A DNA stretch of 45,889 nucleotides from a virus (Duplodnaviria; Heunggongvirae; Uroviricota; Caudoviricetes): IMG/VR virus record IMGVR_UViG_2576861104_000010; one strand, 5' to 3'. The notes under the pieces were generated by a model, which ran no database searches, was not told the origin of the DNA, and saw only the letters and a program-made list of their open reading frames with translations. Shown one piece after another: positions 18,335 to 45,889 of this stretch; the stretch's first letter is position 1; every line of letters begins with the position of its first letter. A program made the position numbers and the translations under genes.

Positions 18335-18348
18335 AGTGCACCCTGTAG

Positions 18349-18365
18349 ATTGCTCTAATAAAAAA
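18349..18365 (+). promoter_or_regulatory. C1 operator (left of a facing pair)
   Basis: ATTGCTCTAATAAAAAA. Confidence 0.65.
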
Positions 18366-18397
18366 CTTGATGAGTGTACATCACGTTTTAAAAATAT

Positions 18398-18414
18398 GGA
18401 ATTATTAGAGCAAT
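18398..18414 (-). promoter_or_regulatory. C1 operator (right of a facing pair)
   Basis: Reverse complement ATTGCTCTAATAATTCC; with 18349-18365 it forms an inverted pair about 50 bp apart around a promoter-like AT-rich core. Confidence 0.65.
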
Positions 18415-18415
18415 A

Positions 18416-19117: not shown

Positions 19118-19806
19118 GCTGCACCATCACCTTTCACTTTCATCAATGTCAGGTTTCCGCAAAATACGGCACCAGTGTCGATATACTGCTGATTCCAGAA
19201 TGTCTTCGGGCTTTTCACCGGAGTGTGACCAAAGATAAAACGATCTGCGCCCGAAATTTCGCCACCAATATCATCCATCGAATCACTGATACGCTCGCGC
19301 GCCCAGACAACGTTGAAAAGCGGCACCTCCTTACCGAATTGGTATTCATTATCCGGATAGTCGGCATGGGCTATAACGATAGTTTCTTGCCCGGTGTTCA
19401 ACTCAATGATATAGGGCAGACGCTTTACCAGCTCCACCAGCGCCCAGGCTAATATTTCCTGATCAGTGTCCAGCATGAAGAACCATTGTCCGCCATTCAT
19501 TAGCCAGTTATTCACGTTGCCATCTGGACTTAACGCATCAATCATCAGCCGCTCATGGTTCCCCATCACTGCCCTGAACCAGGGCATCTGCAATAGTTCC
19601 AGACATTCGACATTTTCAGTACCGCGATCGATAAGGTCGCCGACCGATATCAGTAAATCCTGCGCCGGGTCAAAATCCACACGATGGAGTTCGGACATCA
19701 GTCTGGTGTAGCAACCATGCAGATCACCAACAACCCAGACATTCCTGTATTTGGTACCGTCGATACGGTGATAAATTGTGGGTGCCATCATGTATTCTTC
19801 AGCCAT
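19114..19806 (-). CDS. ppp: Ser/Thr protein phosphatase (lambda-phosphatase-like metallophosphoesterase), 230 aa
   Basis: Motifs GDLHG, GDLIDRG, GNHE; P1 carries a homologous ppp gene. Confidence 0.8.
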
Positions 19807-20414
19807 TCTTTAAGAGTCATCTGCGGAATACCTCCCATTTTCCCGCATGAAACAACGTCAATCTGTTCACGCGCAGACTGGAATAACAAAGGCAGGTGAC
19901 TTAGATTTTTTGGCGTGCCGCCGGAGTGAACGCGTAGTTCTTGCGTAGCGTCAACGCCCACCAGAGCTACATGTTTGAATCCGATATGGAAAGCCAGGTT
20001 CAGAGCACCATATGCACTATTGCCGCTGGCAATTTCATTCTCATCTTCGCAAAGGCCGAAATGTGCGGACCAGCGCCACGCCCACCACTCGGGAGAATTC
20101 GTATTTTTTGGCTCCATGCCGCGTTCAGCCACACGACGGAAGCACAGAACGCCATCTCTGACTTCACGTTCTTTAACATCGGGTAGTGCCATGCAATAAC
20201 AAACACCACGGCGACGGCGGCCACGACCAACGCGCCGCATATTGTCTGGGGATGGATCAAGGGTGAAAAAATAAGAAGCGCGGTTAAGCCAGTCGATGGC
20301 CCCATTGACCGCTATAATCGGCACTCCGCGCGGCGCAACAAAGTTTGCGGCGCTTGGGCCACTGCCGACGATAATAACGCGATCACTGCCTCTAAATTTA
20401 TTCTTGGGAAACAT
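19788..20414 (-). CDS. Rossmann-like protein with GSGPS motif (DUF115/MptE/Maf-like), 208 aa
   Basis: N-terminal [13 protein letters not shown]; paralogous to the upstream gene; its start overlaps that gene's 3' end by about 100 bp in another frame. Confidence 0.5.
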
Positions 20415-31559: not shown

Positions 31560-33450
31560 CAAAAACGTCATGAGCTACACCTCGAGTGTCCCCCTTACAA
31601 GACACAGAACGTCTGGCAAAAAGAGGTTCCACTCTGAAGCCACTGTCATGATAAAGCTCTCTGATGTTTGGCGCGCCACTGTTAGTAATGAGAACCACGG
31701 CAGCCTGGCGGCTGCAAATTGAAAACCGCCCCGGTTCGTCCTGTTGTTGCCGCACGCCCCGCAGAATATGTATGCTCTGAGGACCTGTTTTATTAAGGAC
31801 TCATCCCCTTATGTTGACCCGCAAAAGTATCGATACAGTTCTGCTCTCTGTTGGTGCTGAGAAGCTCTCACAACGAGAATGGGACTGGATGAAAATGCTC
31901 AAACCCATGGACCCACCACCTGCGATGGTGACGACCTCCATCCTGAAGCGCCGTGGCGATACAGCAGCCCTTACCCTGCTACAGGATACCGGGGTTTAAT
32001 CCATCCTCATGTTGTCCGGTTTTACTCCCCGCCCTCTGAAACGTCTGTTCACAGCCAACCAGTGCTGGACGTCCTTCCTGGATGCGGGCGGTCTGCGCGA
32101 TATCGAGGTTGAAGCCGTCACCAAAATGCTGGCCTGCGGCACACGGATACTGGGTGTAAAAGAGTTCGGGTGTGATAACCCGGACTGTCAGCACGTAAAG
32201 TACCTGACCAACTCATGCGGCAGCCGTGCCTGCCCGTCCTGCGGAAAGAAGGCCACAGACCTGTGGACAGCAACACAGCTGAATCGTCTTCCTGACTGCG
32301 ACTGGGTACATCTGGTCTTCACCCTGCCGGACACGCTGTGGCCGGTGTTCGAAAGCAACCGCTGGCTGCTGAATGACGTGTGCCGTCTGGCGGTGGAGAA
32401 TCTGCTGTATGCCGCCCGAAAACGGGGGCTGGAACCCGGTATCTTCTGCGCCATCCACACGTATGGCCGTCGTCTCAACTGGCATCCGCATGTACATGTG
32501 TCTGTAACCTGTGGAGGTCTGAATAAGCATGGTCAGTGGAAAAAGCTGAGCTTCCTGAAAGACGCGATGCGTTCACGGTGGATGTGGAATATGCGGCAGC
32601 TGCTTCTGAAAGCGTGGTCAGAGGGGATGGCAATGCCGGAGTCGTTGTCACATATCACGACGGAATCACAGTGGAGAAGCCTGGTGCTGAAATCCGGCGG
32701 AAAATACTGGCATGTGTACATGTCGAAGAAGACAGCCGGAGGGCGGAATACGGCACGCTACCTGGGTCGTTATCTGAAGAAGCCACCAATAGCGGCTTCC
32801 CGACTGGCTCATTACAACGGAGGGGCAAGCCTGAGCTTCCGTTACCTGGACCACAAAACGGGAGAAACGGCGACGGAAACGCTGACACAGCGTGAGCTGG
32901 TCGCGAGGCTGAAACAGCACATCCCGGAGAAGTTTTTTAAGATGGTGAGGTACTTCGGGTTCCTTGCCAACCGTGTGTGTGGAGAGAAGCTGCCGCAGGT
33001 GTACCGTGCACTGGGGATGGATAAACCGGAACCAGTGGCGAAAGTGTGCTATGCACAAATGGTGAAACAGTTCCTGAGTCGTGACCCGTTCGAATGCGTG
33101 CTGTGTGGCTGCCGGATGGTATACCGCCGGGCCATTGCGGGGCTGAATGTATCAGGGCTGAAGAAAAACGCGCGGGATATCAGTCTACTGAGGTATATGC
33201 CGGCCTGACACAGGCTAAGTGTGCCCGGGAATCGGTGAAAGTATAAAAAACAGCCTGTTACGGTATAAAAATCGACCATACAGAGAGGGAAACCACCGGA
33301 GTGGTGGGAAAAGCAGAAAGGCTCACGTGGCATAAGGCGTGGACAATGGTATCGACTGGTTTTTCAATTTCCTATACGTGAACATGGTCTTCTCATCGAA
33401 AGCATAGAATAATACAGCGTCCTTCCAACCGGCTTTGTTGGCCGGTTTTT
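31560..33450 (+). mobile_element. IS91-family insertion sequence (boundaries approximate)
   Basis: Contains one HUH-Y2 transposase gene and interrupts the phage sequence between a C1 operator and the oriR DnaA boxes; ends not determined. Confidence 0.5.
32009..33208 (+). CDS. tnpA: IS91-family rolling-circle transposase (HUH, two-tyrosine), 399 aa
   Basis: N-terminal zinc-binding Cys cluster (CDNPDCQH...SCGSRACPSCG), HUH motif HPHVHV, and YLGRY two-tyrosine motif. Confidence 0.8.
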   Translation: MLSGFTPRPLKRLFTANQCWTSFLDAGGLRDIEVEAVTKMLACGTRILGVKEFGCDNPDCQHVKYLTNSCGSRACPSCGKKATDLWTATQLNRLPDCDWVHLVFTLPDTLWPVFESNRWLLNDVCRLAVENLLYAARKRGLEPGIFCAIHTYGRRLNWHPHVHVSVTCGGLNKHGQWKKLSFLKDAMRSRWMWNMRQLLLKAWSEGMAMPESLSHITTESQWRSLVLKSGGKYWHVYMSKKTAGGRNTARYLGRYLKKPPIAASRLAHYNGGASLSFRYLDHKTGETATETLTQRELVARLKQHIPEKFFKMVRYFGFLANRVCGEKLPQVYRALGMDKPEPVAKVCYAQMVKQFLSRDPFECVLCGCRMVYRRAIAGLNVSGLKKNARDISLLRYMPA

Positions 33451-33453
33451 CAC

Positions 33454-33674
33454 TTATCCACATTATCCACTGGATAGATCCAATAATTAGGTCCATACAG
33501 ATCCCAATTAGATCCATATAGATCCCTGATCGTTGCAGGCCGCGCCACGTCTGGCCTAGAAGTGTATCGCGATGTGTGCTGGCGGGAAAACGATGTGTGC
33601 TGGCGGGATAAAAATGTGTGCTGACGGGTTGCTAATGTGTGCTGGCGGGATATAGGATGTGTGCTGACGGGAAA
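33454..33674 (+). promoter_or_regulatory. P1-type plasmid origin oriR: tandem DnaA boxes, GATC heptamers, five RepA iterons (incC)
   Basis: TTATCCACA and TTATCCACT at 33454-33471; AGATCCA-type GATC repeats at 33476-33532; five 19-bp iterons GATGTGTGCTGGCGGGAAA-like at 33571-33674, directly upstream of repA. Confidence 0.8.
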
Positions 33675-33730
33675 GCCTGGGTAGTTATCATCACTTATAA
33701 AAACTATCTACATAATTCGGAAAAAGTAAT

Positions 33731-34591
33731 ATGAATCAATCATTTATCTCCGATATTCTTTACGCAGACATTGAAAGTAAGGCAAAAGAACTAACAGTTA
33801 ATTCAAACAACACTGTGCAGCCTGTAGCGTTGATGCGCTTGGGGGTATTCGTGCCGAAGCCATCAAAGAGCAAAGGAGAAAGTAAAGAGATTGATGCCAC
33901 CAAAGCGTTTTCCCAGCTGGAGATAGCTAAAGCCGAGGGTTACGATGATATTAAAATCACCGGTCCTCGACTCGATATGGATACTGATTTCAAAACGTGG
34001 ATCGGTGTCATCTACGCGTTCAGCAAATACGGCTTGTCCTCAAACACCATCCAGTTATCGTTTCAGGAATTCGCTAAAGCCTGTGGTTTCCCCTCAAAAC
34101 GTCTGGATGCGAAACTGCGTTTAACCATTCATGAATCACTTGGACGCTTACGTAACAAGGGTATCGCTTTTAAGCGCGGAAAAGATGCTAAAGGCGGCTA
34201 TCAGACTGGTCTGCTAAAGGTCGGTCGTTTTGATGCTGACCTTGATCTGATAGAGCTGGAGGCTGATTCGAAGCTGTGGGAGCTGTTCCAGCTTGATTAT
34301 CGCGTTCTGTTGCAACACCACGCCTTGCGTGCCCTTCCGAAGAAAGAAGCTGCACAAGCCATTTACACTTTCATCGAAAGCCTTCCGCAGAATCCGTTGC
34401 CGCTATCTTTCGCCCGAATCCGTGAGCGCCTGGCTTTGCAGTCAGCTGTTGGCGAGCAAAACCGTATCATTAAGAAAGCGATAGAACAGCTTAAAACAAT
34501 CGGCTATCTCGACTGTTCAATTGAGAAGAAAGGCCGGGAAAGTTTTGTAATCGTCCATTCTCGCAATCCAAAGCTGAAACTCCCAGAATAA
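33731..34591 (+). CDS. repA: RepA plasmid replication initiator, 286 aa
   Basis: 286-aa ORF flanked by upstream and downstream iteron arrays, the P1 R-replicon layout. Confidence 0.9.
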   Translation: MNQSFISDILYADIESKAKELTVNSNNTVQPVALMRLGVFVPKPSKSKGESKEIDATKAFSQLEIAKAEGYDDIKITGPRLDMDTDFKTWIGVIYAFSKYGLSSNTIQLSFQEFAKACGFPSKRLDAKLRLTIHESLGRLRNKGIAFKRGKDAKGGYQTGLLKVGRFDADLDLIELEADSKLWELFQLDYRVLLQHHALRALPKKEAAQAIYTFIESLPQNPLPLSFARIRERLALQSAVGEQNRIIKKAIEQLKTIGYLDCSIEKKGRESFVIVHSRNPKLKLPE

Positions 34592-34592
34592 G

Positions 34593-34875
34593 TGTGTGCT
34601 GGAGGGAAGCTGCATTAAAAAAATGTGTGCTGCCGGGAAGGCTTGTCCAATTTCCTGTTTTTGATGTGCGCTGGAGGGGGACGCCCCGCAGTTTGCCCAG
34701 ACTTTCCCTCCAGCACACATCTGTCCATCCGTTTTTCCCTCCAGTGCACATGTAATTCTCTGCCTTTCCCTCCAGCACACATATTTGATACCAGCGATCC
34801 CTCCACAGCACATAATTCAATGCGACTTCCCTCTCTCGCACATTCTGGTCCTGCATCATCCCTCCAGCACACATC
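34593..34875 (+). repeat. incA copy-control iteron array (about nine 19-bp RepA sites in both orientations)
   Basis: Repeated GTGTGCTGGAGGGAA and its reverse complement TTCCCTCCAGCACACA directly downstream of repA. Confidence 0.8.
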
Positions 34876-34984
34876 TAATAGCCTCATCGCCATTTCTTTA
34901 CGTGCAATAATTGACGCACGAATCAAAAAAAGTTGCACGTAGCAGAATCAAACGTACAATTCACTCATACGAAATGATAAGGAG

Positions 34985-36196
34985 ATGATGATGAAACGCG
35001 ATTACGGCGGTGTCGGCACCATAGCTCTTCGTGCAAGCGCATTACTTAAGGCCATGAGCCAGGATATTGAAGATCAGCGCAAAGAGTTCAATCAGACCGA
35101 GTATTATCAGACGTTCACTCGTAACGCTGTGGCAAAGTTGCCGAAGCTGAGCCGCCGCATTGTGGAGCAGGCCATCAAAGAGATGGAAGATGATGGGTAC
35201 CAGTTCAACAAGAAACAGGTCGGTAACGTTGAACAGTACGCGCTGACCATCCAGAACGTCATTGATATCTATGCCCACCGTAAGATCCCAAAATATCGCG
35301 ACATTCACAAATCGCCTTACGTTATTTTTGTCGTAAACCTGAAGGGTGGCGTATCCAAAACGGTTTCCACAGTCACGTTGGCGCACGCTCTGCGTGTGCA
35401 TCAGGATTTACTGCGTCACGATCTGCGCATTCTGGTAATTGACCTTGACCCTCAGGCATCCAGCACAATGTTCCTCGACCATACTCACAGTATTGGTTCC
35501 ATCCTGGAAACCGCCGCGCAGGCGATGCTGAACGACCTGGACGCGGAGACGCTACGCAAAGAGGTGATTCGTCCGACCATCGTTCCTGGCGTAGACGTGA
35601 TTCCAGCCTCTATCGACGATGGCTTTGTTGCCAGCCAATGGAAAGAGCTGGTTGAAGAGCATCTTCCCGGACAAAATCAGTACGAAATCCTTCGACGCAA
35701 TATCATTGATCGTGTTGCGGATGATTATGACTTTATCTTTATTGATACCGGTCCACACCTGGATCCGTTCCTGCTCAACGGTCTGGCGGCCAGCGATTTG
35801 CTGCTTACCCCTACCCCACCAGCCCAGGTTGACTTCCACTCAACACTGAAATATCTCACCCGTCTGCCAGAAATGCTGGAGCAACTGGAGGAGGAAGGCG
35901 TAGAACCGCGTTTAAGCGCCAGCATTGGTTTTATGTCGAAGATGACCGGCAAGCGCGATCACGAGACATCACACAGCCTTGCGCGTGAGGTTTACGCCAG
36001 CAACATTCTGGACTCTTCTCTGCCTCGTCTGGATGGATTTGAGCGATGCGGCGAGTCTTTCGACACCGTAATCAGTGCCAACCCGCAATCGTATCCAGGC
36101 AGTGCAGAGGCGCTGAAGAAGGCACGAACCGAGGCCGAGCGTTTCACTAAGGCTGTGTTTGATCGAATTGAGTTTGTTAGGGGTGAGGCGGCATGA
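34985..36196 (+). CDS. parA: ParA partition ATPase, 403 aa
   Basis: Deviant Walker A KGGVSKT with an extended N-terminal HTH region typical of type Ia ParA; upstream of parB. Confidence 0.9.
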   Translation: MMMKRDYGGVGTIALRASALLKAMSQDIEDQRKEFNQTEYYQTFTRNAVAKLPKLSRRIVEQAIKEMEDDGYQFNKKQVGNVEQYALTIQNVIDIYAHRKIPKYRDIHKSPYVIFVVNLKGGVSKTVSTVTLAHALRVHQDLLRHDLRILVIDLDPQASSTMFLDHTHSIGSILETAAQAMLNDLDAETLRKEVIRPTIVPGVDVIPASIDDGFVASQWKELVEEHLPGQNQYEILRRNIIDRVADDYDFIFIDTGPHLDPFLLNGLAASDLLLTPTPPAQVDFHSTLKYLTRLPEMLEQLEEEGVEPRLSASIGFMSKMTGKRDHETSHSLAREVYASNILDSSLPRLDGFERCGESFDTVISANPQSYPGSAEALKKARTEAERFTKAVFDRIEFVRGEAA

Positions 36197-37158
36197 AAAA
36201 AATAGTTTCCCGTGGACGAGTGCTGGGCAAGAATAGCTCCGAGTTTGCTCGCATGCTTGAAGGCAGTGAAGGCACCAAAACCTTTACCCTAAAATCTGGC
36301 CGCCAGGCTAAATTCTTGCTTACCGTCGTGCTGAGTGGTGAGATTGAGTCGCGCACGTTCGTTGACCCGGCAGTTAACGGCCGCGATCAGTCTCTGCTCA
36401 CCCCTGAGTCGGTAAGCGATATTTCCCGCACCATTAAATTGCAACAGTTCTTCCCGGCTATCGGTCGTATGGTTGGGGAGCGCATTGAGGTATTGGACGG
36501 ATCGCGTCGCCGTGCTGCGTGTATCTTCAATGAAACGAAATTTGAGATTCTGGTGACGAAAGATGAGATCAGCCTGGCGGATGCCCGCCAGCTGGCCATT
36601 GATATCCAGACAGCCCGCGAACACACTCTGCGCGAGCTGGGTAAACGCTTCGAGGTTATGTACGGTAAGAATATGACCAAAGAAGAGATCGCCCGAGCTG
36701 AGAACATCTCAAAGGCTAAAGTGACGCGAGCTTTCCAGGCTGCCGCGGTGCCGGATGAGATGATTGCTGTCTTCCCCGTAGCCAGCGAGCTCGCCCTTCC
36801 AGATTACCAGTTACTGCTCCAGATCGCCGAGGATGCTAACGCTAAAAGCGTGCCGATTGAAGAGCTGGTTGATACGGTGCGCGAACGAATTGCAGAGACT
36901 GAGGGCGCGAAAGAGGATAAAGCGAAGATACTGGCTATCTTCAAAGCGGAAAGCAAAAGCCTGAAGCCCGCGCCGGTTAAATCTGTGGTGGTTGAGAAGC
37001 TGCGAGACTTCTCTGACCGTCGCCAATATGCCCGAAAGAAGTCCGATCCGAAAAAACGGGTTGTCGCCTACGAGTTCTCCAGACTCCCGTCTGAAGTGCA
37101 AACTGAAATTGACGAAGCAATAAAAAAAATCATTGGGAAAATGTCTGCTGGGGAATAA
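36193..37158 (+). CDS. parB: ParB partition protein, 321 aa
   Basis: Overlaps the parA stop; ParB-like composition; followed by a parS-like region. Confidence 0.85.
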   Translation: MKKIVSRGRVLGKNSSEFARMLEGSEGTKTFTLKSGRQAKFLLTVVLSGEIESRTFVDPAVNGRDQSLLTPESVSDISRTIKLQQFFPAIGRMVGERIEVLDGSRRRAACIFNETKFEILVTKDEISLADARQLAIDIQTAREHTLRELGKRFEVMYGKNMTKEEIARAENISKAKVTRAFQAAAVPDEMIAVFPVASELALPDYQLLLQIAEDANAKSVPIEELVDTVRERIAETEGAKEDKAKILAIFKAESKSLKPAPVKSVVVEKLRDFSDRRQYARKKSDPKKRVVAYEFSRLPSEVQTEIDEAIKKIIGKMSAGE

Positions 37159-37214
37159 TCCCGCTGGTGGGAGGCGGCTTTAGCCCCCTCCCCTGTCTAA
37201 AATGTCCCGCGTCT

Positions 37215-37300
37215 ATTTCATGTATAAATATATGATATATATAGATATTCATGAAAAATTTCAGACTGAAATTCCCACGGTTTCACGCCTGTTTTACTTG
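37215..37300 (+). promoter_or_regulatory. parS-like centromere region (approximate)
   Basis: AT-rich IHF-like core (TGTATAAATATATGATATATATAGATATTCATG) flanked by heptamer-like boxes ATTTCAG, GAAATTC, GTTTCAC; the boxes differ from canonical P1 ATTTCAC/TCGCCA. Confidence 0.45.
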
Positions 37301-37352
37301 CCCCCCTCCCCCGCACAAAAAATTTAAAAAATTACTTTTAGCGAGAAAGTCA

Positions 37353-37373
37353 ACAAGTGACTTTCAATAAAAT
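37353..37373 (+). promoter_or_regulatory. Candidate Lpa-dependent late promoter for the head/tail operon
   Basis: ACAAGTGACTTT-caa-TAAAAT with TGACT-N5-TANNNT spacing, about 50 nt before the probable TTG start of the capsid gene. Confidence 0.45.
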
Positions 37374-37403
37374 CTCTTCCGAAAAGGGATTCACACAAGT
37401 GCC

Positions 37404-39131
37404 TTGTGTTTAAGGAAGAGTAAATTGAGTAACTTACGCGAATACCAGAATCGTATTGCAGATATCGCAAAACGCTCTAAAGCTGTGCTTGGCTGGGCAA
37501 GCACTGCGCAGTTCGGTACTGATAACCAATTCATTAAAGATGATGCCGCGCGTGCCGCATCTATCCTTGAAGCTGCACGTAAAGACCCGGTTTTTGCGGG
37601 TATCTCTGATAATGCCACCGCTCAAATCGCTACAGCGTGGGCAAGTGCACTGGCTGACTACGCCGCAGCACATAAATCTATGCCGCGTCCGGAAATTCTG
37701 GCCTCCTGCCACCAGACGCTGGAAAACTGCCTGATTGAGTCCACCCGCAATAGCATGGATGCCACTAATAAAGCGATGCTGGAATCCGTCGCAGCAGAGA
37801 TGATGAGCGTTTCTGACGGTGTTATGCGTCTGCCTTTATTCCTCGCGATGATCCTGCCGGTTCAGTTGGGGGCAGCTACCGCTGATGCGTGTACCTTCAT
37901 TCCGGTTACGCGTGACCAGTCCGACATCTATGAAGTCTTTAACGTGGCAGGTTCCTCTTTTGGTTCTTATGCTGCTGGTGATGTTCTGGACATGCAATCC
38001 GTCGGTGTGTACAGCCAGTTACGTCGCCGCTATGTGCTGGTGGCAAGCTCCGATGGCACCAGCAAAACCGCAACCTTCAAGATGGAAGACTTCGAAGGCC
38101 AGAATGTACCAATCCGAAAAGGTCGTACTAACATCTACGTTAACCGTATTAAGTCTGTTGTTGATAACGGTTCCGGCAGCCTACTTCACTCGTTTACTAA
38201 TGCTGCTGGTGAGCAAATCACTGTTACCTGCTCTCTGAATTACAACATTGGTCAGATTGCCCTGTCGTTCTCCAAAGCGCCGGATAAAGGCACTGAGATC
38301 GCAATTGAGACGGAAATCAATATTGAAGCCGCTCCTGAGCTGATCCCGCTGATCAACCACGAAATGAAGAAATATACCCTGTTCCCAAGCCAGTTCGTTA
38401 TCGCGGCTGAGCACACGGTACAGGCGGCGTATGAAGCACAGCGTGAATTTGGTCTGGACCTGGGTTCCCTACAGTTCCGCACCCTGAAAGAATACCTGTC
38501 CCATGAACAGGATATGTTGCGTCTCCGCATCATGATCTGGCGTACTCTTGCGACCGACACCTTTGACATCGCTCTGCCGGTTAACCAGTCCTTTGATGTA
38601 TGGGCAACCATCATTCGTGGCAAATTCCAGACTGTATATCGCGACATTATTGAGCGCGTTAAATCTTCTGGTGCGATGGGGATGTTTGCTGGTGCTGATG
38701 CAGCATCTTTCTTCAAACAGTTGCCGAAGGATTTCTTCCAGCCAGCCGAAGACTATATCCAGACTCCGTATGTTCACTACATCGGTACCCTGTTCGGTAA
38801 CGTGAAAGTGTACGAAGTACCTGCTGGTATTTGTAAGAACTTAACGACAGAGAACATTCAGTTCAGCTCGATGGATGTGCTGTGCTACGTCCGTGATGAA
38901 AATCCGGGTAAAGCAGGCTTCGTGACTGGTGATGCTGTCCCGGCCATCCCGTTCCAGCATCCGACCACTCCGGCGCTGGTCAACCGTACCACGCTGTGGG
39001 GTTCGGCTATCAACGATATGCACCCACGCAACGGCGCTGATTACTTCACTCGTGTAACGCTGACAATGGCCAAAAAAGGCGGGCTTAACTTCATTAGCGG
39101 CGACACGATTGATGCCGGTGACTCTGAGTAA
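37404..39131 (+). CDS. Major head protein (P1 gene 23-like), about 570 aa
   Basis: Large ORF immediately after parS as in P1; the true start may be TTG at 37425 behind AAGGAAGAG. Confidence 0.6.
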   Translation: MCLRKSKLSNLREYQNRIADIAKRSKAVLGWASTAQFGTDNQFIKDDAARAASILEAARKDPVFAGISDNATAQIATAWASALADYAAAHKSMPRPEILASCHQTLENCLIESTRNSMDATNKAMLESVAAEMMSVSDGVMRLPLFLAMILPVQLGAATADACTFIPVTRDQSDIYEVFNVAGSSFGSYAAGDVLDMQSVGVYSQLRRRYVLVASSDGTSKTATFKMEDFEGQNVPIRKGRTNIYVNRIKSVVDNGSGSLLHSFTNAAGEQITVTCSLNYNIGQIALSFSKAPDKGTEIAIETEINIEAAPELIPLINHEMKKYTLFPSQFVIAAEHTVQAAYEAQREFGLDLGSLQFRTLKEYLSHEQDMLRLRIMIWRTLATDTFDIALPVNQSFDVWATIIRGKFQTVYRDIIERVKSSGAMGMFAGADAASFFKQLPKDFFQPAEDYIQTPYVHYIGTLFGNVKVYEVPAGICKNLTTENIQFSSMDVLCYVRDENPGKAGFVTGDAVPAIPFQHPTTPALVNRTTLWGSAINDMHPRNGADYFTRVTLTMAKKGGLNFISGDTIDAGDSE

Positions 39132-39191
39132 TCAGGGGAAGTTCTCCGTTTAACATAGCGCCCCCGTGCGGGGCGCATAACAGGGAAAGTT

Positions 39192-40781
39192 ATGTCTCAA
39201 TATTCAATTCAACAGTCATTAGGTAATGCATCCGGCGTCGCGGTTAGCCCGATCAATGCCGATGCGACGTTATCTACCGGTGTTGCATTAAATAGCAGCT
39301 TGTGGGCTGGTATTGGCGTATTTGCGCGTGGCAAGCCGTTTACTGTTCTTGCGGTTACTGAGTCCAATTACGAAGATGTTCTCGGCGAACCGCTGAAGCC
39401 GTCTTCCGGCTCACAGTTCGAACCAATTCGCCATGTGTACGAAGCTATTCAGCAAACGTCTGGTTATGTTGTCCGTGCTGTTCCGGATGATGCGAAGTTC
39501 CCGATTATTATGTTCGATGAATCAGGCGAACCGGCTTACAGTGCGTTGCCATACGGTTCTGAAATTGAACTTGATAGCGGCGAAGCCTTTGCTATCTACG
39601 TTGATGATGGTGATCCGTGTATTTCACCTACCCGTGAGTTAACCATCGAAACGGCAACAGCGGACAGCGCGGGTAATGAACGCTTCCTCTTAAAACTGAC
39701 CCAGACGACTTCGCTCGGTGTGGTAACGACCCTGGAGACACACACTGTGTCTTTGGCGGAAGAAGCGAAAGATGACATGGGCCGCTTGTGTTATCTGCCT
39801 ACGGCTCTGGAAGCCCGTTCTAAATATCTGCGTGCGGTTGTTAATGAAGAGCTGATTTCGACAGCGAAAGTAACAAATAAAAAATCGGTGGCATTCACTG
39901 GCGGTACCAATGGCGATCAGTCGAAAATCTCAACCGCTGCTTACCTGCGTGCGGTTAAAGTGCTGAATAATGCGCCGTACATGTACACCGCTGTTCTTGG
40001 CTTGGGCTGCTATGACAATGCGGCTATCACCGCATTAGGTAAAATCTGTGCAGATCGCCTGATTGATGGCTTCTTTGATGTCAAACCGACATTGACGTAC
40101 ACGGAAGCGATCTCTGCTGTTGAAGATACCGGTTTACTTGGTACCGATTATGTAAGCTGTGCTGTCTATCACTACCCGTTCTCCTGCAAAGACAAATGGA
40201 CCCAATCCCGTGTGGTCTTTGGTCTGTCTGGCGTGGCGTATGCGGCGAAAGCTCGTGGCGTCAAGAAAAACTCTGATGTCGGCGGTTGGCATTACTCACC
40301 GGCTGGTGAAGAACGTGCCGTCATTGCTCGTGCGTCAATTCAACCGCTGTATCCGGAAGATACCCCGGACGAAGAAGCAATGGTCAAGGGCCGTCTCAAT
40401 AAAGTATCTGTTGGCACCTCTGGCCAGATGATCATCGACGATGCTTTAACTTGCTGCACGCAGGATAACTATCTGCACTTCCAGCACGTCCCATCCCTGA
40501 TGAATGCAATCAGCCGTTTCTTTGTCCAGTTAGCCCGACAGATGAAGCATAGCCCGGACGGTATTACTGCGGCTGGCCTGACTAAAGGGATGACCAAACT
40601 TTTAGATCGCTTTGTCGCCTCCGGCGCTCTGGTGGCTCCTCGTGATCCTGATGCTGACGGTACAGAACCGTATGTGCTGAAAGTTACGCAGGCGGAATTC
40701 GATAAATGGGAAGTAGTCTGGGCCTGCTGCCCGACTGGCGTAGCCCGTCGTATCCAGGGCGTACCGCTGCTTATTAAGTAA
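39192..40781 (+). CDS. Contractile tail sheath protein (P1 gene 22-like), 529 aa
   Basis: About 57 kDa ORF following the capsid gene; size and order fit a myovirus sheath; family not verified. Confidence 0.55.
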   Translation: MSQYSIQQSLGNASGVAVSPINADATLSTGVALNSSLWAGIGVFARGKPFTVLAVTESNYEDVLGEPLKPSSGSQFEPIRHVYEAIQQTSGYVVRAVPDDAKFPIIMFDESGEPAYSALPYGSEIELDSGEAFAIYVDDGDPCISPTRELTIETATADSAGNERFLLKLTQTTSLGVVTTLETHTVSLAEEAKDDMGRLCYLPTALEARSKYLRAVVNEELISTAKVTNKKSVAFTGGTNGDQSKISTAAYLRAVKVLNNAPYMYTAVLGLGCYDNAAITALGKICADRLIDGFFDVKPTLTYTEAISAVEDTGLLGTDYVSCAVYHYPFSCKDKWTQSRVVFGLSGVAYAAKARGVKKNSDVGGWHYSPAGEERAVIARASIQPLYPEDTPDEEAMVKGRLNKVSVGTSGQMIIDDALTCCTQDNYLHFQHVPSLMNAISRFFVQLARQMKHSPDGITAAGLTKGMTKLLDRFVASGALVAPRDPDADGTEPYVLKVTQAEFDKWEVVWACCPTGVARRIQGVPLLIK

Positions 40782-40790
40782 GGGAATACA

Positions 40791-41606
40791 ATGAGCAAAA
40801 ACTTTTTTCAATCCGGGGCATTTTTGGGGAATGGACTGTCCCGTTTCGCTTTGAACTCTGATCCTGTGCAGCTGATGGAGTCTGCCCGAGCAAGCGCCGA
40901 ACCGCCAACAGATCCGGTTATTAATAATAATCCGGAACCGGCGGCACAGACTAACGATAACGTTCCATCTGATCCGGCTCCTGAGCAAATCCTGGAAGAG
41001 AAAGACGGTAAAGAATGGACCGTTGAACAGGCGCACCAGATGATTCTGGAAGCTGCAAATCGAAGTGCAATGCAGAATGCGTTGAGTGATGCGGCCGACG
41101 CCGTTTTCGCCTGGGCTGATAGCGGTGATCTGACTTTCGACTCCCTTGATGGTTTCGTTCAGGCTATCGCTGGTATCTCTGATGACGACGACTCCGAAGT
41201 TACAGAAGAACAGGACGATGCCTATAACGAAGCATGGGCAAATGTTGCTGACTTCCTCGCAGCATGCGGTGTAGATGATGACATGATCGAAGCACTGGCT
41301 GACGATGAAGACGACGACGCTGCTGCTGATGTTGGTGCCTCTATCGCTGGTTTAGATAGCGACGACCGCGACGAACTGGAAGCGGCGTTTGTTGTTGCTG
41401 GCACTTCTGATGAAATGCTGACTGAAGCATTTAAGAAGGTTGTTCGTAACGGTGAGATCAAACTCATCCGTAAACGCCTGCGGAAAAAACGTCTGACTGC
41501 GGCTCAAAAATCGGCGCTGAAAAAAGCGCGTCGAAAAGCCCAGACCGGCGCGGCAAAACTTGCCCGCAAAAAGTCAATGAAACTGCGCCGTAAGCGCCTT
41601 GGCTAA
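40791..41606 (+). CDS. Hypothetical virion-associated protein, acidic body with a strongly basic C-terminal tail, 271 aa
   Basis: Asp/Glu runs (DDDDSEV, DDEDDDAAAD) and C-terminal KLIRKRLRKKRLTAAQKSALKKARRKAQ. Confidence 0.4.
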   Translation: MSKNFFQSGAFLGNGLSRFALNSDPVQLMESARASAEPPTDPVINNNPEPAAQTNDNVPSDPAPEQILEEKDGKEWTVEQAHQMILEAANRSAMQNALSDAADAVFAWADSGDLTFDSLDGFVQAIAGISDDDDSEVTEEQDDAYNEAWANVADFLAACGVDDDMIEALADDEDDDAAADVGASIAGLDSDDRDELEAAFVVAGTSDEMLTEAFKKVVRNGEIKLIRKRLRKKRLTAAQKSALKKARRKAQTGAAKLARKKSMKLRRKRLG

Positions 41607-41641
41607 AGGAGGAGGCCGGAGAACTCCGGCCTTTAACTTGA

Positions 41642-42223
41642 ATGGCACCTATACCTTATGGGGTTTACAGCCAGGCTGATGGTGTATCGCCATTTCTGAA
41701 AGTTACTTTAACGAACTCTCAGTACCAGGTTACCGGATATATCAGCCAGGGGGCAGCAATGAACATGGCCCAGAATTGGGAAGCGCCGTTTACCGGTATG
41801 TCCATGGGGTCTGTTGCTGGTGCTTTCAGTGGTTTTGCGCAGGTTGGTACTGAAACAACGTCGGTGGCCCGTTGGAACAGCTTAATGGTTTGGGAGGGGG
41901 GAACACCGCCGACTTTCACGCTGCCAGTAACTTTCATCGCTTTGTTTGACCCATTCACGGAGGTTTCAGGAGCTATCGCCGCATTGTCAGCGATGATTAG
42001 CCCGGAACTTAAAGATGCCAGTATTGGTGGTCGAATCCCGGAGCGTGTGACGCTAAACATTGGTCGCCGGATCAACATCATTGATGTCGCTATCCAGGAC
42101 ATAAGTTTCGATCTCGATGCACCCAGGGACAGCAATGGGCATTTCCTGAAAAACACCGTCAACCTCCAGTTGACCGGTTCTTCGATATATAACAGCTCCG
42201 ATATTGTTCGGGCGTTCCAGTAA
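41642..42223 (+). CDS. Putative tail tube protein, 193 aa
   Basis: Position downstream of the sheath gene and size about 21 kDa; no diagnostic motif recognised. Confidence 0.4.
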   Translation: MAPIPYGVYSQADGVSPFLKVTLTNSQYQVTGYISQGAAMNMAQNWEAPFTGMSMGSVAGAFSGFAQVGTETTSVARWNSLMVWEGGTPPTFTLPVTFIALFDPFTEVSGAIAALSAMISPELKDASIGGRIPERVTLNIGRRINIIDVAIQDISFDLDAPRDSNGHFLKNTVNLQLTGSSIYNSSDIVRAFQ

Positions 42224-42234
42224 AAGGATTTTAT

Positions 42235-42744
42235 ATGGGGCACAATAACACTAAGGGAAACCGTAAATTTATTAAGGGCCGCTATACTGCCAACGCGGCC
42301 AAAGGCGAACGACTGGTATCTTCTGAATTCCAGCTCACTTTTGCAGGCCATGAAGATATCAGCGTACTGGTTCGCACGTCGCAAATTCCTGAAATGACCC
42401 GCGAGGATGTGGAGGACTATGGTCCGAATGGTGTGAAGTTCAACCAGCACGGTCCAATTCGAAACTCTGGGGAAATCCAGGTCCAGTGCGTGGAGACTAT
42501 CGAAGGCGATATTCTTCAGTTCATTAAAGATCGCATTGCGGCGAAGGACTATGTTGATATCACGATGGCTGCTACCCCTGAATCCAAATCTTCCGGGGTT
42601 AACGCTGTGACAAAAGCTGCTACAACAATTGAAATGTTGGACTGCAAAATCTACAGTGATGCAATCGACTTTAGTACCGAAGATGTGACTGCCGCTGTGC
42701 GCCCGTCACTTCGTATCGTCTACAACTGGATTGAGTGGGATTAA
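42235..42744 (+). CDS. Hypothetical tail-associated protein, 169 aa
   Basis: Last gene of the operon, followed by a GC-rich hairpin (GGGGGAGGT...CCTCCCC) at about 42770-42795. Confidence 0.4.
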   Translation: MGHNNTKGNRKFIKGRYTANAAKGERLVSSEFQLTFAGHEDISVLVRTSQIPEMTREDVEDYGPNGVKFNQHGPIRNSGEIQVQCVETIEGDILQFIKDRIAAKDYVDITMAATPESKSSGVNAVTKAATTIEMLDCKIYSDAIDFSTEDVTAAVRPSLRIVYNWIEWD

Positions 42745-42963
42745 GTGTTATCCCTTGTACTTTTAATCTTCTTCGGGGGAGGTTTACCTCCCCTTGATAC
42801 AACCGCATTCCACCGCCTAGCGAATAGAGTAAAATAACATCTTGTAAATACTCTGGTATGAAGTGAGTGTAAACTAACAGTTACCTATTAATAAATACTC
42901 CTATACTTTTCTACCTTAAATATTTAGTATGCACATGGTTAAATTTATGTAGCGTCAAAGTTT

Positions 42964-44034
42964 GTGAAGGCAAGATGTCCGTTAATCTTTGTCGAAGCAT
43001 ATATGGTTCTAGGAAGTATTGGCTTATTTAAGAGGAATGTCATGTTACGTATCAATGATATGAGCAATATTATTGTAGGTATTTACAGCAAAAAAAATGA
43101 AGAAAAATCATTTGAGTATATGTACTCTTATCTGACAAGGAAAACAGCTTATTTAACACGTGAGTTTATTCGTGATGGTAATCAGGATAAAGAATTATTA
43201 AAAAATACCTATATAGAAGCATTGTCTTGGCTTTTTGCAATCTGTGATAAACTTGAAATACAACCACAGGAAGCATTTTATAAAAAATTTCCTAGTTGCT
43301 GTCCTTATTGCTTAGGGGCGCCTTGTTCCTGTTCTCAAACACACAGAAAGCCAGAGAAAATAAGAAGCGCAAAAGGAATTAAAGATGAGCTTTTCAATAA
43401 ATATAACGCTATTAAACCTATGCAATTTCCGCCTTATGCGCCACGAATGATTAATGACATCTATCCGTCGAATAGAACCATTTGGTCTACTTTTGGTGGG
43501 TTTTATCATTCATCCAGGTTATTCGAAGAGTTGGGTGAGTTGCAAGAGGCTTATGCTAAATCAATTGAAGATAAAAATTACAACAAAGAAAATCTTCATG
43601 AAGAGTGTGCTGATATATATGCTTGGTTGTTTTCTTTATGGGGGATTATTTTTAAAGATGATGATCTTGGCGAGGCGTTTGAAAGTTATTATCTAAATGG
43701 TTGTCCTGTCTGCAATAAAAGAGAATGTGTTTGTGTCAGTTATTCAGGGAAGATTAGTAAAACTGATGAGAAAAGAGCATCATTGGAAAAACTTAAACAA
43801 GAGTTAGAACTTCTCTTGAAGGATGAGACGACAGGTGAGTTTAAGGAGAATTTAGAGTCTGCTATATCTGCAATTAAAGATGCGATAGACTCAGGAAAAG
43901 ATGCAGATAGCAGAAGAACTTTATCGGAAGTCGAAAGTGTTCTTGACTCAATCGAAAAAAATTCAGCCAAGATGTCTAGTGTGGCAAGTAACGCCCTTAA
44001 TGTTTTTAATGTAATCAGTAAGTTATTCCAATAA
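42964..44034 (+). CDS. Hypothetical protein in an AT-rich island with MazG-like motifs and two zinc-ribbon-like Cys clusters; probable start ATG about 43042 (about 330 aa)
   Basis: EELGELQEAY...EECADIYAWLFSLWG resembles the EExxE...ExxD core of MazG/all-alpha NTP pyrophosphohydrolases; CCPYCLGAPCSC and CPVCNKRECVC clusters; coiled-coil C-terminus; strong RBS AAGAGGA before the internal ATG. Confidence 0.55.
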   Translation: MKARCPLIFVEAYMVLGSIGLFKRNVMLRINDMSNIIVGIYSKKNEEKSFEYMYSYLTRKTAYLTREFIRDGNQDKELLKNTYIEALSWLFAICDKLEIQPQEAFYKKFPSCCPYCLGAPCSCSQTHRKPEKIRSAKGIKDELFNKYNAIKPMQFPPYAPRMINDIYPSNRTIWSTFGGFYHSSRLFEELGELQEAYAKSIEDKNYNKENLHEECADIYAWLFSLWGIIFKDDDLGEAFESYYLNGCPVCNKRECVCVSYSGKISKTDEKRASLEKLKQELELLLKDETTGEFKENLESAISAIKDAIDSGKDADSRRTLSEVESVLDSIEKNSAKMSSVASNALNVFNVISKLFQ

Positions 44035-44376
44035 TGGTGCCCACCGGTTTGTTAGAAAATGAACCGGTGTTGTATTATTTATTATTAAATTAATTTTAAT
44101 CCTAATAGATGGATGTTTGTTGTGGATATAATTTGTTTAAGTTTTAGGTGTATTTTTCCATATATAATCTAGGTGGTATTAGCAAAGCAAGTATGGAATT
44201 TTGTTAACAGCTAGATATTTCTGAAAGTCATCATGTCGCGAAGGCTATTGGGAGATATGGTCTGAATCTTTGCATGATGTGAAATAACTCCTTCTACTTC
44301 ATTGTGTTTTACACTATTGGGGAGAAAAGGGTGCATTGAGGTTACCAGACACACGAAAAGTGGCGGGGATCACTCC

Positions 44377-45715
44377 CATAAGCGCTAACTTAAGGGTTGT
44401 GGTATTACGCCTGATATGATTTAACGTGCCGATGAATTACTCTCACGATAACTGGTCAGCAATTCTGGCCCATATTGGTAAGCCCGAAGAACTGGATACT
44501 TCGGCACGTAATGCCGGGGCTCTAACCCGCCGCCGCGAAATTCGTGATGCTGCAACTCTGCTACGTCTGGGGCTGGCTTACGGCCCCGGGGGGATGTCAT
44601 TACGTGAAGTCACTGCATGGGCTCAGCTCCATGACGTTGCAACATTATCTGACGTGGCTCTCCTGAAGCGGCTGCGGAATGCCGCCGACTGGTTTGGCAT
44701 ACTTGCCGCACAAACACTTGCTGTACGCGCCGCAGTTACGGGTTGTACAAGCGGAAAGAGATTGCGTCTTGTCGATGGAACAGCAATCAGTGCGCCCGGG
44801 GGCGGCAGCGCTGAATGGCGACTACATATGGGATATGATCCTCATACCTGTCAGTTCACTGATTTTGAGCTAACCGACAGCAGAGACGCTGAACGGCTGG
44901 ACCGATTTGCGCAAACGGCAGACGAGATACGCATTGCTGACCGGGGATTCGGTTCGCGTCCCGAATGTATCCGCTCACTTGCTTTTGGAGAAGCTGATTA
45001 TATCGTCCGGGTTCACTGGCGAGGATTGCGCTGGTTAACTGCAGAAGGAATGCGCTTTGACATGATGGGTTTTCTGCGCGGGCTGGATTGCGGTAAGAAC
45101 GGTGAAACCACTGTAATGATAGGCAATTCAGGTAATAAAAAAGCCGGAGCTCCCTTTCCGGCACGTCTCATTGCCGTATCACTTCCTCCCGAAAAAGCAT
45201 TAATCAGTAAAACCCGACTGCTCAGCGAGAATCGTCGAAAAGGACGAGTAGTTCAGGCGGAAACGCTGGAAGCAGCGGGCCATGTGCTATTGCTAACATC
45301 ATTACCGGAAGATGAATATTCAGCAGAGCAAGTGGCTGATTGTTACCGTCTGCGATGGCAAATTGAACTGGCTTTTAAGCGGCTCAAAAGTTTGCTGCAC
45401 CTGGATGCTTTGCGTGCAAAGGAACCTGAACTCGCGAAAGCGTGGATATTTGCTAATCTACTCGCCGCATTTTTAATTGACGACATAATCCAGCCATCGC
45501 TGGATTTCCCCCCCAGAAGTGCCGGATCCGAAAAGAAGAACTAACTCGTTGTGGAGAATAACAAAAATGGTCATCTGGAGCTTACAGGTGGCCATTCGTG
45601 GGACAGTATCCCTGACAGCCTACAAAACGCAATTGAAGAACGCGAGGCATCGTCTTAACGAGGCACCGAGGCGTCGCATTCTTCAGATGGTTCAACCCTT
45701 AAGTTAGCGCTTATG
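44377..45715 (+). mobile_element. IS186 (IS4 family), complete, about 1339 bp
   Basis: Perfect 23-bp terminal inverted repeats CATAAGCGCTAACTTAAGGGTTG at 44377-44399 and 45693-45715 around a single transposase gene. Confidence 0.85.
44426..45544 (+). CDS. IS186 transposase (IS4-family DDE), about 370 aa
   Basis: Protein begins M(PM)NYSHDNWSAILAHIGKPEELDTSARNAGALTRRREIRDAATLLRLGLAYGPGG, matching recalled IS186 transposase; the true start may be the Met at 44432. Confidence 0.85.
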   Translation: MPMNYSHDNWSAILAHIGKPEELDTSARNAGALTRRREIRDAATLLRLGLAYGPGGMSLREVTAWAQLHDVATLSDVALLKRLRNAADWFGILAAQTLAVRAAVTGCTSGKRLRLVDGTAISAPGGGSAEWRLHMGYDPHTCQFTDFELTDSRDAERLDRFAQTADEIRIADRGFGSRPECIRSLAFGEADYIVRVHWRGLRWLTAEGMRFDMMGFLRGLDCGKNGETTVMIGNSGNKKAGAPFPARLIAVSLPPEKALISKTRLLSENRRKGRVVQAETLEAAGHVLLLTSLPEDEYSAEQVADCYRLRWQIELAFKRLKSLLHLDALRAKEPELAKAWIFANLLAAFLIDDIIQPSLDFPPRSAGSEKKN

Positions 45716-45736
45716 GGTTTTACCCCCGCGTGGTGG

Positions 45737-45889
45737 CTACTTCTTCGATTCGTAAGCGAGAACTGCCTTAAACTCCATACCACGTTCTCTGATACTCAAC
45801 TCACACAACGAGTCGCCTACCATCAGCGTGAATCCCAGTACTGTAAAACACAGCACTATGATTGCCACAAGGGCATATTTTGTCAGCAT
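45737..45889 (-). CDS. hok: Hok/Gef-family type I toxin (hokE-like), 50 aa
   Basis: [50 protein letters not shown] has the Hok membrane helix plus C-terminal ...AYES/EPKK signature; start codon is at the last base of the window, so mok/sok are not visible. Confidence 0.8.

What the first reader, a model, noticed from the sequence alone, without database searches (positions are those of the whole stretch)
44361..45889. IS186 sits 21 bp from a hokE-like gene and lacks a matching target-site duplication
The hok-family ORF ends 21 bp from the right inverted repeat of IS186, the arrangement I recall for the E. coli K-12 hokE locus. The 10 bp flanking the two IS ends (GGATCACTCC versus GGTTTTACCC) are not a direct repeat, although both flanks carry the GGGG/CCCC character of IS186 targets. 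This suggests the IS is a recombination junction, joining chromosome-like hokE DNA to the phage-plasmid plus AT-rich island, rather than a simple insertion. The window ends at the hok start codon, so what lies beyond is unknown.
Basis: partly seen in the sequence, partly recalled or inferred. Interest (0 to 1): 0.45.

Follow-up and report, generated by a model that had tools for sequence, protein, structure and literature searches.

The report
Hybrid IS186 joining phage-plasmid to chromosome
One copy of the E. coli insertion sequence IS186 has a P1-like phage-plasmid on its left and a chromosomal hok toxin gene on its right, so it marks recombination between two separate IS186 insertions (or an assembly mis-join through the repeat), which is a familiar kind of event.

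Summary
IS186 occupies 44377-45715 (1339 bp, 23-bp inverted repeats). The hok stop codon lies 21 bp from its right end. The flanks GGATCACTCC and GGTTTTACCC are not a duplication.

Each flank is half of a different, documented IS186 insertion:
- **Left flank:** the half-site of an insertion in the terminator hairpin of a hokC-like gene on P1-like plasmids. The empty site reads GGCGGGGATCACTCCCCGCC, and filled plasmids carry a clean 10-bp duplication.
- **Right flank:** the half-site of an insertion in the hairpin GCGGGGGTAAAACCCCGC of the chromosomal hok between cysH and cas3. This is the locus where K-12 keeps only sokX, so it is not hokE. The 174-bp flank occurs in 4221 of 5426 complete E. 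coli genomes, always on the chromosome, and about 826 of them carry IS186 at this position.

The element is therefore a hybrid that has swapped the plasmid's own hok for a chromosomal one. The 21-22 bp spacing is generic, because IS186 targets the GGGG(N6)CCCC hairpin of several hok loci.

All IS copies compared are identical or differ by one base, so no crossover can be mapped. Real recombination (about 0.55) cannot be separated from an assembly chimera (about 0.35). This is a new instance of a known process and of low interest.

The parts
1..42777 (.). P1/P7-type (Punavirus) phage-plasmid backbone with cre, c1, phd/doc, a type I hsdMSR system, ban, repA and parAB. It starts with 17 nt of a Tn3-family inverted repeat.
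   Evidence: About 98% nucleotide identity to P1 and P7 up to window 42777 and to about 95-kb P1-like E. coli plasmids.
42778..44376 (+). AT-rich cargo module of a subset of P1-like plasmids. The MazG-like CDS is at 43042-44034. The last 60 bp (44317-44376) are the distal 3' flank of the plasmid's own hokC-like locus.
   Evidence: 34.7% GC. Absent from P1 and P7. Present, and followed by a 51-aa hok, in many P1-like plasmids.
44360..44376 (.). Left half-site GTGGCGGGGATCACTCC. This is half of the plasmid hok terminator hairpin, and its last 10 nt (44367-44376, GGATCACTCC) are one copy of the plasmid insertion's target duplication.
   Evidence: The empty site in plasmid D5 reads GTGGCGGGGATCACTCCCCGCCAGG. 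Filled plasmids carry GGATCACTCC on both sides.
44377..45715 (+). IS186 (annotated by RefSeq as IS421 family), complete at 1339 bp, with inverted repeats at 44377-44399 and 45693-45715.
   Evidence: 100% identical to K-12 IS186B and to a plasmid copy.
44432..45544 (+). IS186 transposase CDS, 370 aa.
   Evidence: Pfam DDE_Tnp_1 E=1.6e-26. Same CDS as WP_001300563.1.
45716..45736 (.). Right half-site and 21-bp spacer. GGTTTTACCC (45716-45725) is one copy of the chromosomal insertion's target duplication. GGTTTTACCCCCGC is half of the chromosomal hok terminator hairpin.
   Evidence: The empty chromosomal site reads GCGGGGGTAAAACCCCGC. The predicted junction cas3-flank-GGTTTTACCC-IS186 is found at 100% identity in 326 genomes.
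45737..45889 (-). hok toxin gene of the chromosomal cysH-cas3 intergenic locus (the sokX locus of K-12). It is complete at 50 aa. Its mok/sok control region lies beyond the window.
   Evidence: PF01848. The 174-bp flank gives 4234 places, all chromosomal, in 4221 genomes. The native neighbours are cysH and cas3 or iap.

Best explanation
The IS186 copy is a hybrid made by homologous recombination between two IS186 elements in the same orientation.

One element had inserted into the GGGG-ATCACT-CCCC terminator hairpin of the hokC-like gene of a P1-like phage-plasmid. The other had inserted into the GGGG(G)TAAAACCCC hairpin of the chromosomal hok between cysH and cas3.

A crossover anywhere inside the 1.3-kb identical IS fuses the plasmid to the chromosome. 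The MazG side of the plasmid then reads through one IS186 straight into the chromosomal hok (and presumably cysH). The plasmid's own hok, repL and the rest of the plasmid would lie behind a second IS186 at the reciprocal junction.

Shown here: both half-sites and their origins, the matching IS orientation, and the exclusively chromosomal nature of the right flank. Inferred: that the join happened in the cell, by RecA-type recombination, and that the product is a cointegrate or a derivative of one.
For: - **Left side.** It is collinear with P1-like plasmids for 44 kb. It ends in exactly the half-site seen in six complete E. coli plasmid records that carry IS186 at this spot; the four whose flanks were read have a clean GGATCACTCC duplication, and a fifth (HB-Coli0) differs by one base on the right. 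The uninterrupted hairpin is seen in plasmid D5.
- **Right side.** It is 100% identical to the chromosomal hok. There are 4234 places, none on a plasmid. PLSDB gives only three hits at 98% or above, all in records over 4.7 Mb.
- **A chromosomal partner is common.** About 826 complete genomes carry IS186 at this position and orientation beside this hok. Of these, 326 have the predicted simple-insertion junction on the cas3 side.
- **The same IS has recombined before.** Its distal flank is a CRISPR repeat in JP538 and ascG in MLI104K2. Almendros et al. 2014 inferred IS186-mediated deletions at this locus (PMC3903273).
- **IS-IS recombination is frequent in E. coli.** The measured rate is 4.5e-5 per genome per generation (PMC5009759).
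- **Orientation is compatible with a single crossover.** It is the same in the plasmid and chromosomal copies.
Against: - The plasmid copy and both K-12 chromosomal copies compared are 100% identical to the window's IS, so no crossover point or mosaic can be shown. The same structure would come from an assembler walking through a collapsed repeat.
- The reciprocal junction and everything beyond the hok ATG lie outside the window.
- No record with this junction exists in 5426 complete E. coli genomes, PLSDB, IMG/VR, the GTDB representatives or JGI metagenomes.
- The window begins inside a transposon inverted repeat and ends 174 bp past the IS. That looks like a short-read contig, and a short-read assembler cannot normally resolve a 1.3-kb repeat.
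Confidence: 0.55

Rival explanations
1. Assembly chimera. The strain carries a free P1-like plasmid with IS186 next to its own hok, and a chromosome with IS186 next to the cysH-proximal hok. The assembler collapsed the identical IS copies and threaded the plasmid's left flank to the chromosome's right flank.
For: - The IS copies are identical to the base, so nothing in the sequence contradicts a mis-join.
- Both parental arrangements are common in E. coli.
- The window starts 17 nt into a Tn3-family inverted repeat and stops 174 bp beyond the IS. The stopping point is exactly where K-12-type genomes diverge from hok-bearing ones. Both ends look like graph branch points in a short-read or mixed-sample assembly.
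- The junction is not seen in any complete genome.
Against: - Graph assemblers that break at a 38-bp inverted repeat usually also break at a multicopy 1.3-kb IS rather than traverse it. Traversal suggests there was no competing path.
- 59% of complete E. coli genomes have no IS186 match, so low-copy hosts exist.
- IS-mediated fusions at this very IS are documented.
Confidence: 0.35
2. A transposition-generated fusion. The plasmid's IS186 attacked the empty chromosomal hok hairpin and formed a cointegrate directly (replicative, or from a plasmid dimer). That would give the same donor-flank/IS/new-target arrangement. A variant is a P1-like plasmid that picked up a chromosomal hok-cysH segment by IS186-mediated integration followed by aberrant excision, giving a specialised-transducing-type derivative.
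For: - The chromosomal hairpin is a canonical IS186 target.
- A replicative cointegrate would give exactly the flank pattern seen.
- From my own knowledge, not checked here: P1 derivatives carrying chromosomal DNA through IS-mediated events are classical.
Against: - From general knowledge: IS186 belongs to the IS4 family, whose studied members move by cut-and-paste and do not make cointegrates.
- A pre-existing chromosomal copy at this exact site and orientation is present in about 15% of complete genomes, which makes plain homologous recombination simpler.
- The excision variant needs a second event and cannot be tested within the window.
Confidence: 0.07
3. An ordinary simple insertion of IS186 next to a plasmid-borne hok/sok locus, with a decayed or atypical target duplication.
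For: Both flanks have the GG...CC ends of IS186 targets. P1-like plasmids do carry a hok at this position.
Against: - The plasmid hok is a different gene: a 51-aa HokC-like protein, 40% identical.
- The window's hok flank is never found on a true plasmid.
- The flank cores differ at 5 of 6 positions.
- Each flank matches perfectly a different insertion's duplication.
Confidence: 0.02

Closest known systems
IS186 beside the hok/sok system of the cysH-cas3 (CRISPR-I) region, and IS186-mediated loss of the cas-E genes (Almendros et al., mBio 2014, PMC3903273)
   Same: Same chromosomal hok, same IS186 position and orientation, same right-hand junction sequence. That IS is already known to be a recombination substrate, and hybrid flanks are seen here in JP538, MLI104K2 and CP128609.
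   Different: There the partner IS lies in the same chromosome (CRISPR array, ascG) and the outcome is a deletion or rearrangement. Here the partner flank is a P1-like phage-plasmid.
My recollection is that Pedersen and Gerdes 1999 noted IS elements 21-22 bp downstream of hok genes; the paper was not read here.
   Same: IS186 lies 21-22 bp beyond the hok stop codon, inside a GGGG(N6)CCCC hairpin.
   Different: Those are simple insertions with intact 10-bp duplications (GGATCACTCC and GGAGTAATCC). The window's hok is a different paralogue, 78% identical to HokE. In hokE the IS has the opposite orientation relative to hok.
P1-like plasmids with IS186 in the terminator of their hokC-like gene (for example NZ_LR883966.1, NZ_CP020936.1 and p1108-IncY in PMC10101111)
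   Same: Identical left junction, and the same MazG-like module upstream.
   Different: They keep the plasmid hok, repL and ant to the right of the IS and have a matching duplication. The window has chromosomal hok there instead.
IS-mediated plasmid-chromosome fusion, such as Hfr formation by F through IS2/IS3/gamma-delta, and P1 or P7 integration through IS1 (textbook knowledge, not checked here)
   Same: Homologous recombination between an IS on an episome and the same IS in the chromosome gives an integrated replicon flanked by direct IS copies with mismatched target duplications.
   Different: The IS here is IS186, and the homology sits at two paralogous hok terminators. Only one of the two junctions is visible.

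Membership tests
IS186 (IS4 family; RefSeq 'IS421 family') | Element of about 1.34 kb with 23-bp terminal inverted repeats and near-identity to the K-12 reference copies | tested here: met
   1339 bp with perfect 23-bp inverted repeats. No differences from K-12 IS186B.
IS186 (IS4 family; RefSeq 'IS421 family') | DDE transposase | tested here: met
   Pfam PF01609 DDE_Tnp_1, E=1.6e-26, 93.7 bits against a cut-off of 23.
IS186 simple insertion | Direct duplication of the target (10 bp as counted here; an N6/N7 core within GGGG...CCCC in Lee et al. 2016, PMC5009759) | tested here: not met
   GGATCACTCC against GGTTTTACCC: 5 of 10 identical, and 1 of 6 in the core. Eight other copies tested the same way show 10 of 10.
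Hok/Gef type I toxin | Protein of about 50 aa matching the HOK_GEF profile | tested here: met
   PF01848, E=3.1e-11, full-length profile match.
Hok/Gef type I toxin-antitoxin locus | Overlapping mok frame and antisense sok RNA upstream of hok | not testable with these tools
   The window ends on the hok ATG. In genomes with the identical hok, the upstream region aligns with K-12 sokX (56 of 59 nt).
hokE locus of K-12 | Orthology to hokE: the same gene and the same flanks (ybdK ... entD) | tested here: not met
   78% protein identity. The hairpin core is TAAAAC, not AGTAAT, and the IS orientation is opposite. The 174-bp flank is 100% identical to the cysH-cas3 locus.
P1-like phage-plasmid (Punavirus) | Collinear nucleotide similarity to P1/P7, including the replication, partition, immunity and virion genes | tested here: met
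   97.9-98.7% identity to P1 and P7 over 70-84% of window 24000-42777. 98% coverage of window 1-20000 by P1-like plasmids of about 96 kb. cre, c1, repA, parAB, sheath and baseplate genes are present.
Plasmid-chromosome cointegrate | A second IS copy and the reciprocal junction (chromosomal flank-IS186-plasmid hok), with chromosome continuing beyond hok | not testable with these tools
   Both lie outside the window, and the source record could not be found.

The most novel reading that the evidence does not exclude
The conserved terminator hairpins of hok genes act as shared IS186 landing pads on chromosomes, on IncF-type plasmids and on P1-like phage-plasmids. Once occupied, they give a transducing phage-plasmid 1.3 kb of portable homology next to the cysH / CRISPR-Cas I-E region. 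On this reading the window captures a real P1-like prophage integrated there, or a P1 derivative carrying that chromosomal segment. That would be a route for P1-like elements to switch between episomal and chromosomal states and to mobilise or disrupt the adjacent CRISPR-Cas locus.
Probability: 0.3. Interest if true: 0.4.

Novelty: new member of a known kind. Interest (0 to 1): 0.2.

Why it matters
If the join is real, it is a concrete example of a P1-like phage-plasmid fused to the E. coli chromosome through IS186, at a site directly beside the type I-E CRISPR-Cas locus. P1-like elements often carry resistance genes, and a Tn3-family end sits at the window's start.

The case also illustrates how one target motif links otherwise unrelated replicons. 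The GGGG(N6)CCCC hairpin ending hok transcripts seeds identical IS copies in paralogous toxin loci.

If the join is an artefact, it is a useful warning. Contigs that traverse IS186 between plasmid and chromosomal hok loci should not be taken as evidence of integration.

Either way the mechanism is textbook. The practical value lies mostly in correct annotation: this is not hokE, not a simple insertion, and not a plasmid-borne hok.

Tried and rejected
1. **Realigning the IS ends to rescue a duplication.** With either boundary convention (10-bp duplication, or N6 core with CC/GG assigned to the IS) the flanks differ.
2. **Mapping a crossover inside the IS.** The window copy, a plasmid copy and two chromosomal copies are identical, and JP538 differs at one base not shared by the window. 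No mosaic signal is available.
3. **Finding the source record or any record with the same junction.** All searches failed:
   - complete E. coli genomes;
   - PLSDB;
   - IMG/VR;
   - GTDB representative genomes, which gave only a hokC-type flank in strain ECDA1023 and contaminant mini-contigs;
   - JGI metagenomes;
   - exact-protein look-ups of hok, the MazG-like protein, the 529-aa sheath-like protein, the 420-aa protein and C1.

   The closest find was a sister contig, GCA_019365755.1 JAEOJZ010000055.1. It is 100% identical over window 6852-28114 but does not reach the IS and differs left of 1483.
4. **Explaining the right end of the window by a repeat shared among hok paralogues.** No shared k-mer of 21 or more was found with hokC, hokE or the plasmid hok. 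The end does coincide with the K-12-type breakpoint at the hok ATG, but that does not separate a gene-boundary cut from a graph branch.
5. **The apparent 93% coverage by plasmids.** This looked as though the right flank was plasmid-like. Direct comparison shows it is only megablast extending through the weakly similar paralogous hok 3' end.
6. **A literature search for P1-like chromosomal integration.** It returned nothing relevant.

Full report
**What is there**

Window 44377-45715 is a complete IS186: 1339 bp, with perfect 23-bp terminal inverted repeats (CATAAGCGCTAACTTAAGGGTTG and its complement). It is base-for-base identical to K-12 IS186B and to a plasmid copy. Its transposase (44432-45544, +) matches DDE_Tnp_1.

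A 50-aa Hok/Gef ORF lies at 45737-45889 on the minus strand and matches PF01848. Its stop codon is exactly 21 bp from the right IS end, and the window ends on its ATG.

The ten bases outside the two ends are GGATCACTCC and GGTTTTACCC. They share 5 of 10 positions, all in the GG/CC ends, and 1 of 6 in the core.

**Is the missing duplication meaningful?**

Yes. I extracted IS186 flanks from every locus fetched. Clean 10-bp duplications are present at:
- K-12 hokC (GGATCACTCC);
- K-12 hokE (GGAGTAATCC);
- six copies in P1-like and IncF plasmid sequences (GGATCACTCC or GGATCTCTCC).

Lee et al. 2016 (PMC5009759) defined the target as GGGG(N6/N7)CCCC with the core duplicated. They counted only 54 such sites in a K-12 genome. 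The window contains no intact site of this kind anywhere in its 45.9 kb.

**Origin of the left flank**

Window 1-42777 is a P1/P7-type phage-plasmid. It shows about 98% identity to P1 and P7 and to many E. coli plasmids of about 95 kb.

Window 42778-44376 is a 34.7% GC module encoding a MazG-like protein. P1 and P7 lack it, but a subset of P1-like plasmids carries it. In those plasmids it is followed by a 51-aa HokC-like gene (annotated 'hokD'), then repL, kilA/ant and icd.

Plasmid D5 shows the uninterrupted site: GTGGCGGGGATCACTCCCCGCCAGG, a perfect hairpin 22 bp beyond that hok. Six plasmid records from complete E. coli genomes hold IS186 at this spot. The four whose flanks I read carry GGATCACTCC on both sides, and a fifth (HB-Coli0) differs by one base on the right.

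The window's left flank is this plasmid half-site.

**Origin of the right flank**

The 174 bp from the IS end to the end of the window occur in 4221 of 5426 complete E. coli genomes. That is 4234 places, every one on a chromosome and none on a plasmid, and 796 genomes match at 99% or better.

In PLSDB the only hits at 98% or above are three records longer than 4.7 Mb, which are mislabelled chromosomes.

The native context is cysJIH - hok - cas3/casA..., or hok - iap where the cas genes are missing. K-12 has only sokX in this intergenic region. It is collinear with hok-bearing genomes up to and including the hok ATG and then diverges at once.

The empty site reads ...TAG CCACCAC GCGGGGGTAAAACCCCGC GTACTG....

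About 826 complete genomes carry IS186 at exactly the window's position and orientation next to this hok. I built the junction expected on the other side of a simple insertion (cas3 flank - GGTTTTACCC - IS186 left end). It is found at 100% identity in 326 genomes, including strains whose right junction was already among the hits.

The window's right flank is therefore the half-site of this chromosomal insertion.

**Which hok it is**

The protein is 78% identical to K-12 HokE and 40% identical to the plasmid's HokC-like protein. It is not hokE, though HokE is its nearest K-12 paralogue.

**Why 21 bp**

IS186 lies 22 bp from hokC, 21 bp from hokE, 22 bp from the plasmid hok and 21 bp from this hok. 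All four genes end in a GGGG(N6)CCCC-type stem-loop, with predicted hairpins.

In hokE the IS is in the opposite orientation relative to hok. In hokC, the plasmids and the window, the transposase-distal end faces hok. The same hairpin in IncF and other plasmids of E. coli, E. albertii, E. fergusonii, Shigella and Salmonella is also frequently occupied.

**Interpretation**

The element is a hybrid. Its left target copy comes from the plasmid insertion and its right copy from the chromosomal insertion. The net effect is that the plasmid's hok has been exchanged for a chromosomal hok.

The simplest biological route is a single homologous crossover between the two IS186 copies, which are in the same orientation. 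That would integrate the P1-like replicon between cas3 (or whatever then flanked the chromosomal IS) and hok-cysH. A second IS186 and the plasmid hok-repL side would sit at the reciprocal junction.

This IS has recombined before. In JP538 its outer flank is a type I-E CRISPR repeat, in MLI104K2 it is ascG, and in CP128609 it is another G-rich site near iap. Almendros et al. inferred IS186-mediated loss of cas-E genes at this locus (PMC3903273).

A transposition-made cointegrate, or a plasmid that captured a chromosomal segment, would look the same inside the window. I rate both lower.

**Why the in-cell origin is not proven**

- The plasmid copy and both K-12 chromosomal copies are identical to the window's IS, so there is no internal breakpoint to find. 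An assembler walking through a collapsed IS would give the same sequence.
- The window starts 17 nt inside what I recognise, from memory, as a Tn3-family inverted repeat (P1-like matches begin at 12-18).
- It stops 174 bp past the IS, exactly at the hok ATG, where K-12-type genomes diverge. Both ends look like assembly-graph branch points. The right end could equally be a cut at a gene boundary.
- I could not find the source record or any second example of the junction in any collection.

Against a chimera: an assembler that stops at a 38-bp inverted repeat would normally also stop at a multicopy IS. Many E. coli genomes carry no IS186 (only 2211 of 5426 matched).

I put real recombination at about 0.55, an assembly chimera at about 0.35, other mechanisms at about 0.07, and a simple insertion or plasmid-borne hok at about 0.02.

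**Novelty and score**

Every ingredient is known:
- IS186 target specificity;
- IS186 next to hok genes;
- IS186 at the cysH-hok-cas3 locus and its role in rearrangements there;
- IS186 in P1-like plasmids;
- IS-mediated episome integration.

What is new is only this pairing: a P1-like phage-plasmid joined to the chromosomal cysH-proximal hok. It is absent from 5426 complete genomes.

I classify it as a new member of a known kind, with interest of about 0.2. The main corrections are the identity of the hok locus and the generic nature of the 21-bp spacing.

Noticed in passing
window 1-225: The window opens with ACTGAGCGTCAGACCCC, the outer 17 nt of a Tn3-family terminal inverted repeat (recognised from memory). 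It truncates a P1 ORF on the minus strand whose ATG is near 225. A Tn3-type transposon, possibly a resistance transposon, therefore abuts the left end.
   Followed up: partly
window 42745-44376; loci L018-L027 and L035-L044: The slot between the 169-aa baseplate gene and repL of P1-like plasmids is a variable cargo site. Different plasmids hold MazG-like plus hok, hok alone, or DUF3800 plus a 154-aa gene. The MazG-like protein has no Pfam hit.
   Followed up: partly
window 45887-45889; L016 (K-12 2887.3 kb); L014 6001-6003: K-12's sokX locus keeps the hok upstream region up to and including the ATG, and the hok ORF is replaced immediately after it. The window's last base coincides exactly with this population-level breakpoint.
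   Followed up: partly
L004 (JP538), L002 (MLI104K2), L008 and L012: The chromosomal IS186 next to the cysH-proximal hok often has a non-matching outer flank: a type I-E CRISPR repeat, ascG, or a G-rich site near iap. This implies IS186-mediated deletion of the cas genes or larger rearrangements. Only 326 of about 826 IS-bearing genomes keep the simple-insertion junction.
   Followed up: partly
L028 (IMGVR_UViG_2923350032_000001 = plasmid NZ_CP020936.1): The IS186 in this P1-like plasmid has flanks that differ by one base (GGATCACTCC and GGATCTCTCC). Either a point mutation occurred, or two IS186 copies sitting in different plasmid hok alleles exchanged.
   Followed up: no
L030 (Kocuria tytonicola NZ_PHOA01000239.1, 210 bp); L031 (Streptosporangium vulgare NZ_JBHMBS010000132.1, 789 bp): Tiny contigs in two actinobacterial draft genomes are 100% identical to IS186 ends with a hokC-type flank. 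This is almost certainly E. coli contamination of those assemblies.
   Followed up: no
L021 (CP043541.1, a 5.57-Mb chromosome): A 6.6-kb fragment of a P1-like plasmid (sheath-like gene through MazG-like and the plasmid hok, with the IS186 site empty) sits in a chromosome between type VI secretion genes and proBA. P1-like DNA does therefore end up in chromosomes.
   Followed up: partly
window 9983-16009: A type I restriction-modification system (hsdM, hsdS, hsdR) is carried on the P1-like backbone. The HsdS allele is rare (13 contigs), and the exact HsdR allele was seen on only one other contig.
   Followed up: no
window 6852-28114; L045 and L054 (GCA_019365755.1 JAEOJZ010000055.1): A 34-kb contig of another assembly is 100.000% identical to 21 kb of the window. 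Left of window 1483 it carries a different Tn3-family transposase. It is a close relative of the same plasmid with a different transposon load.
   Followed up: partly
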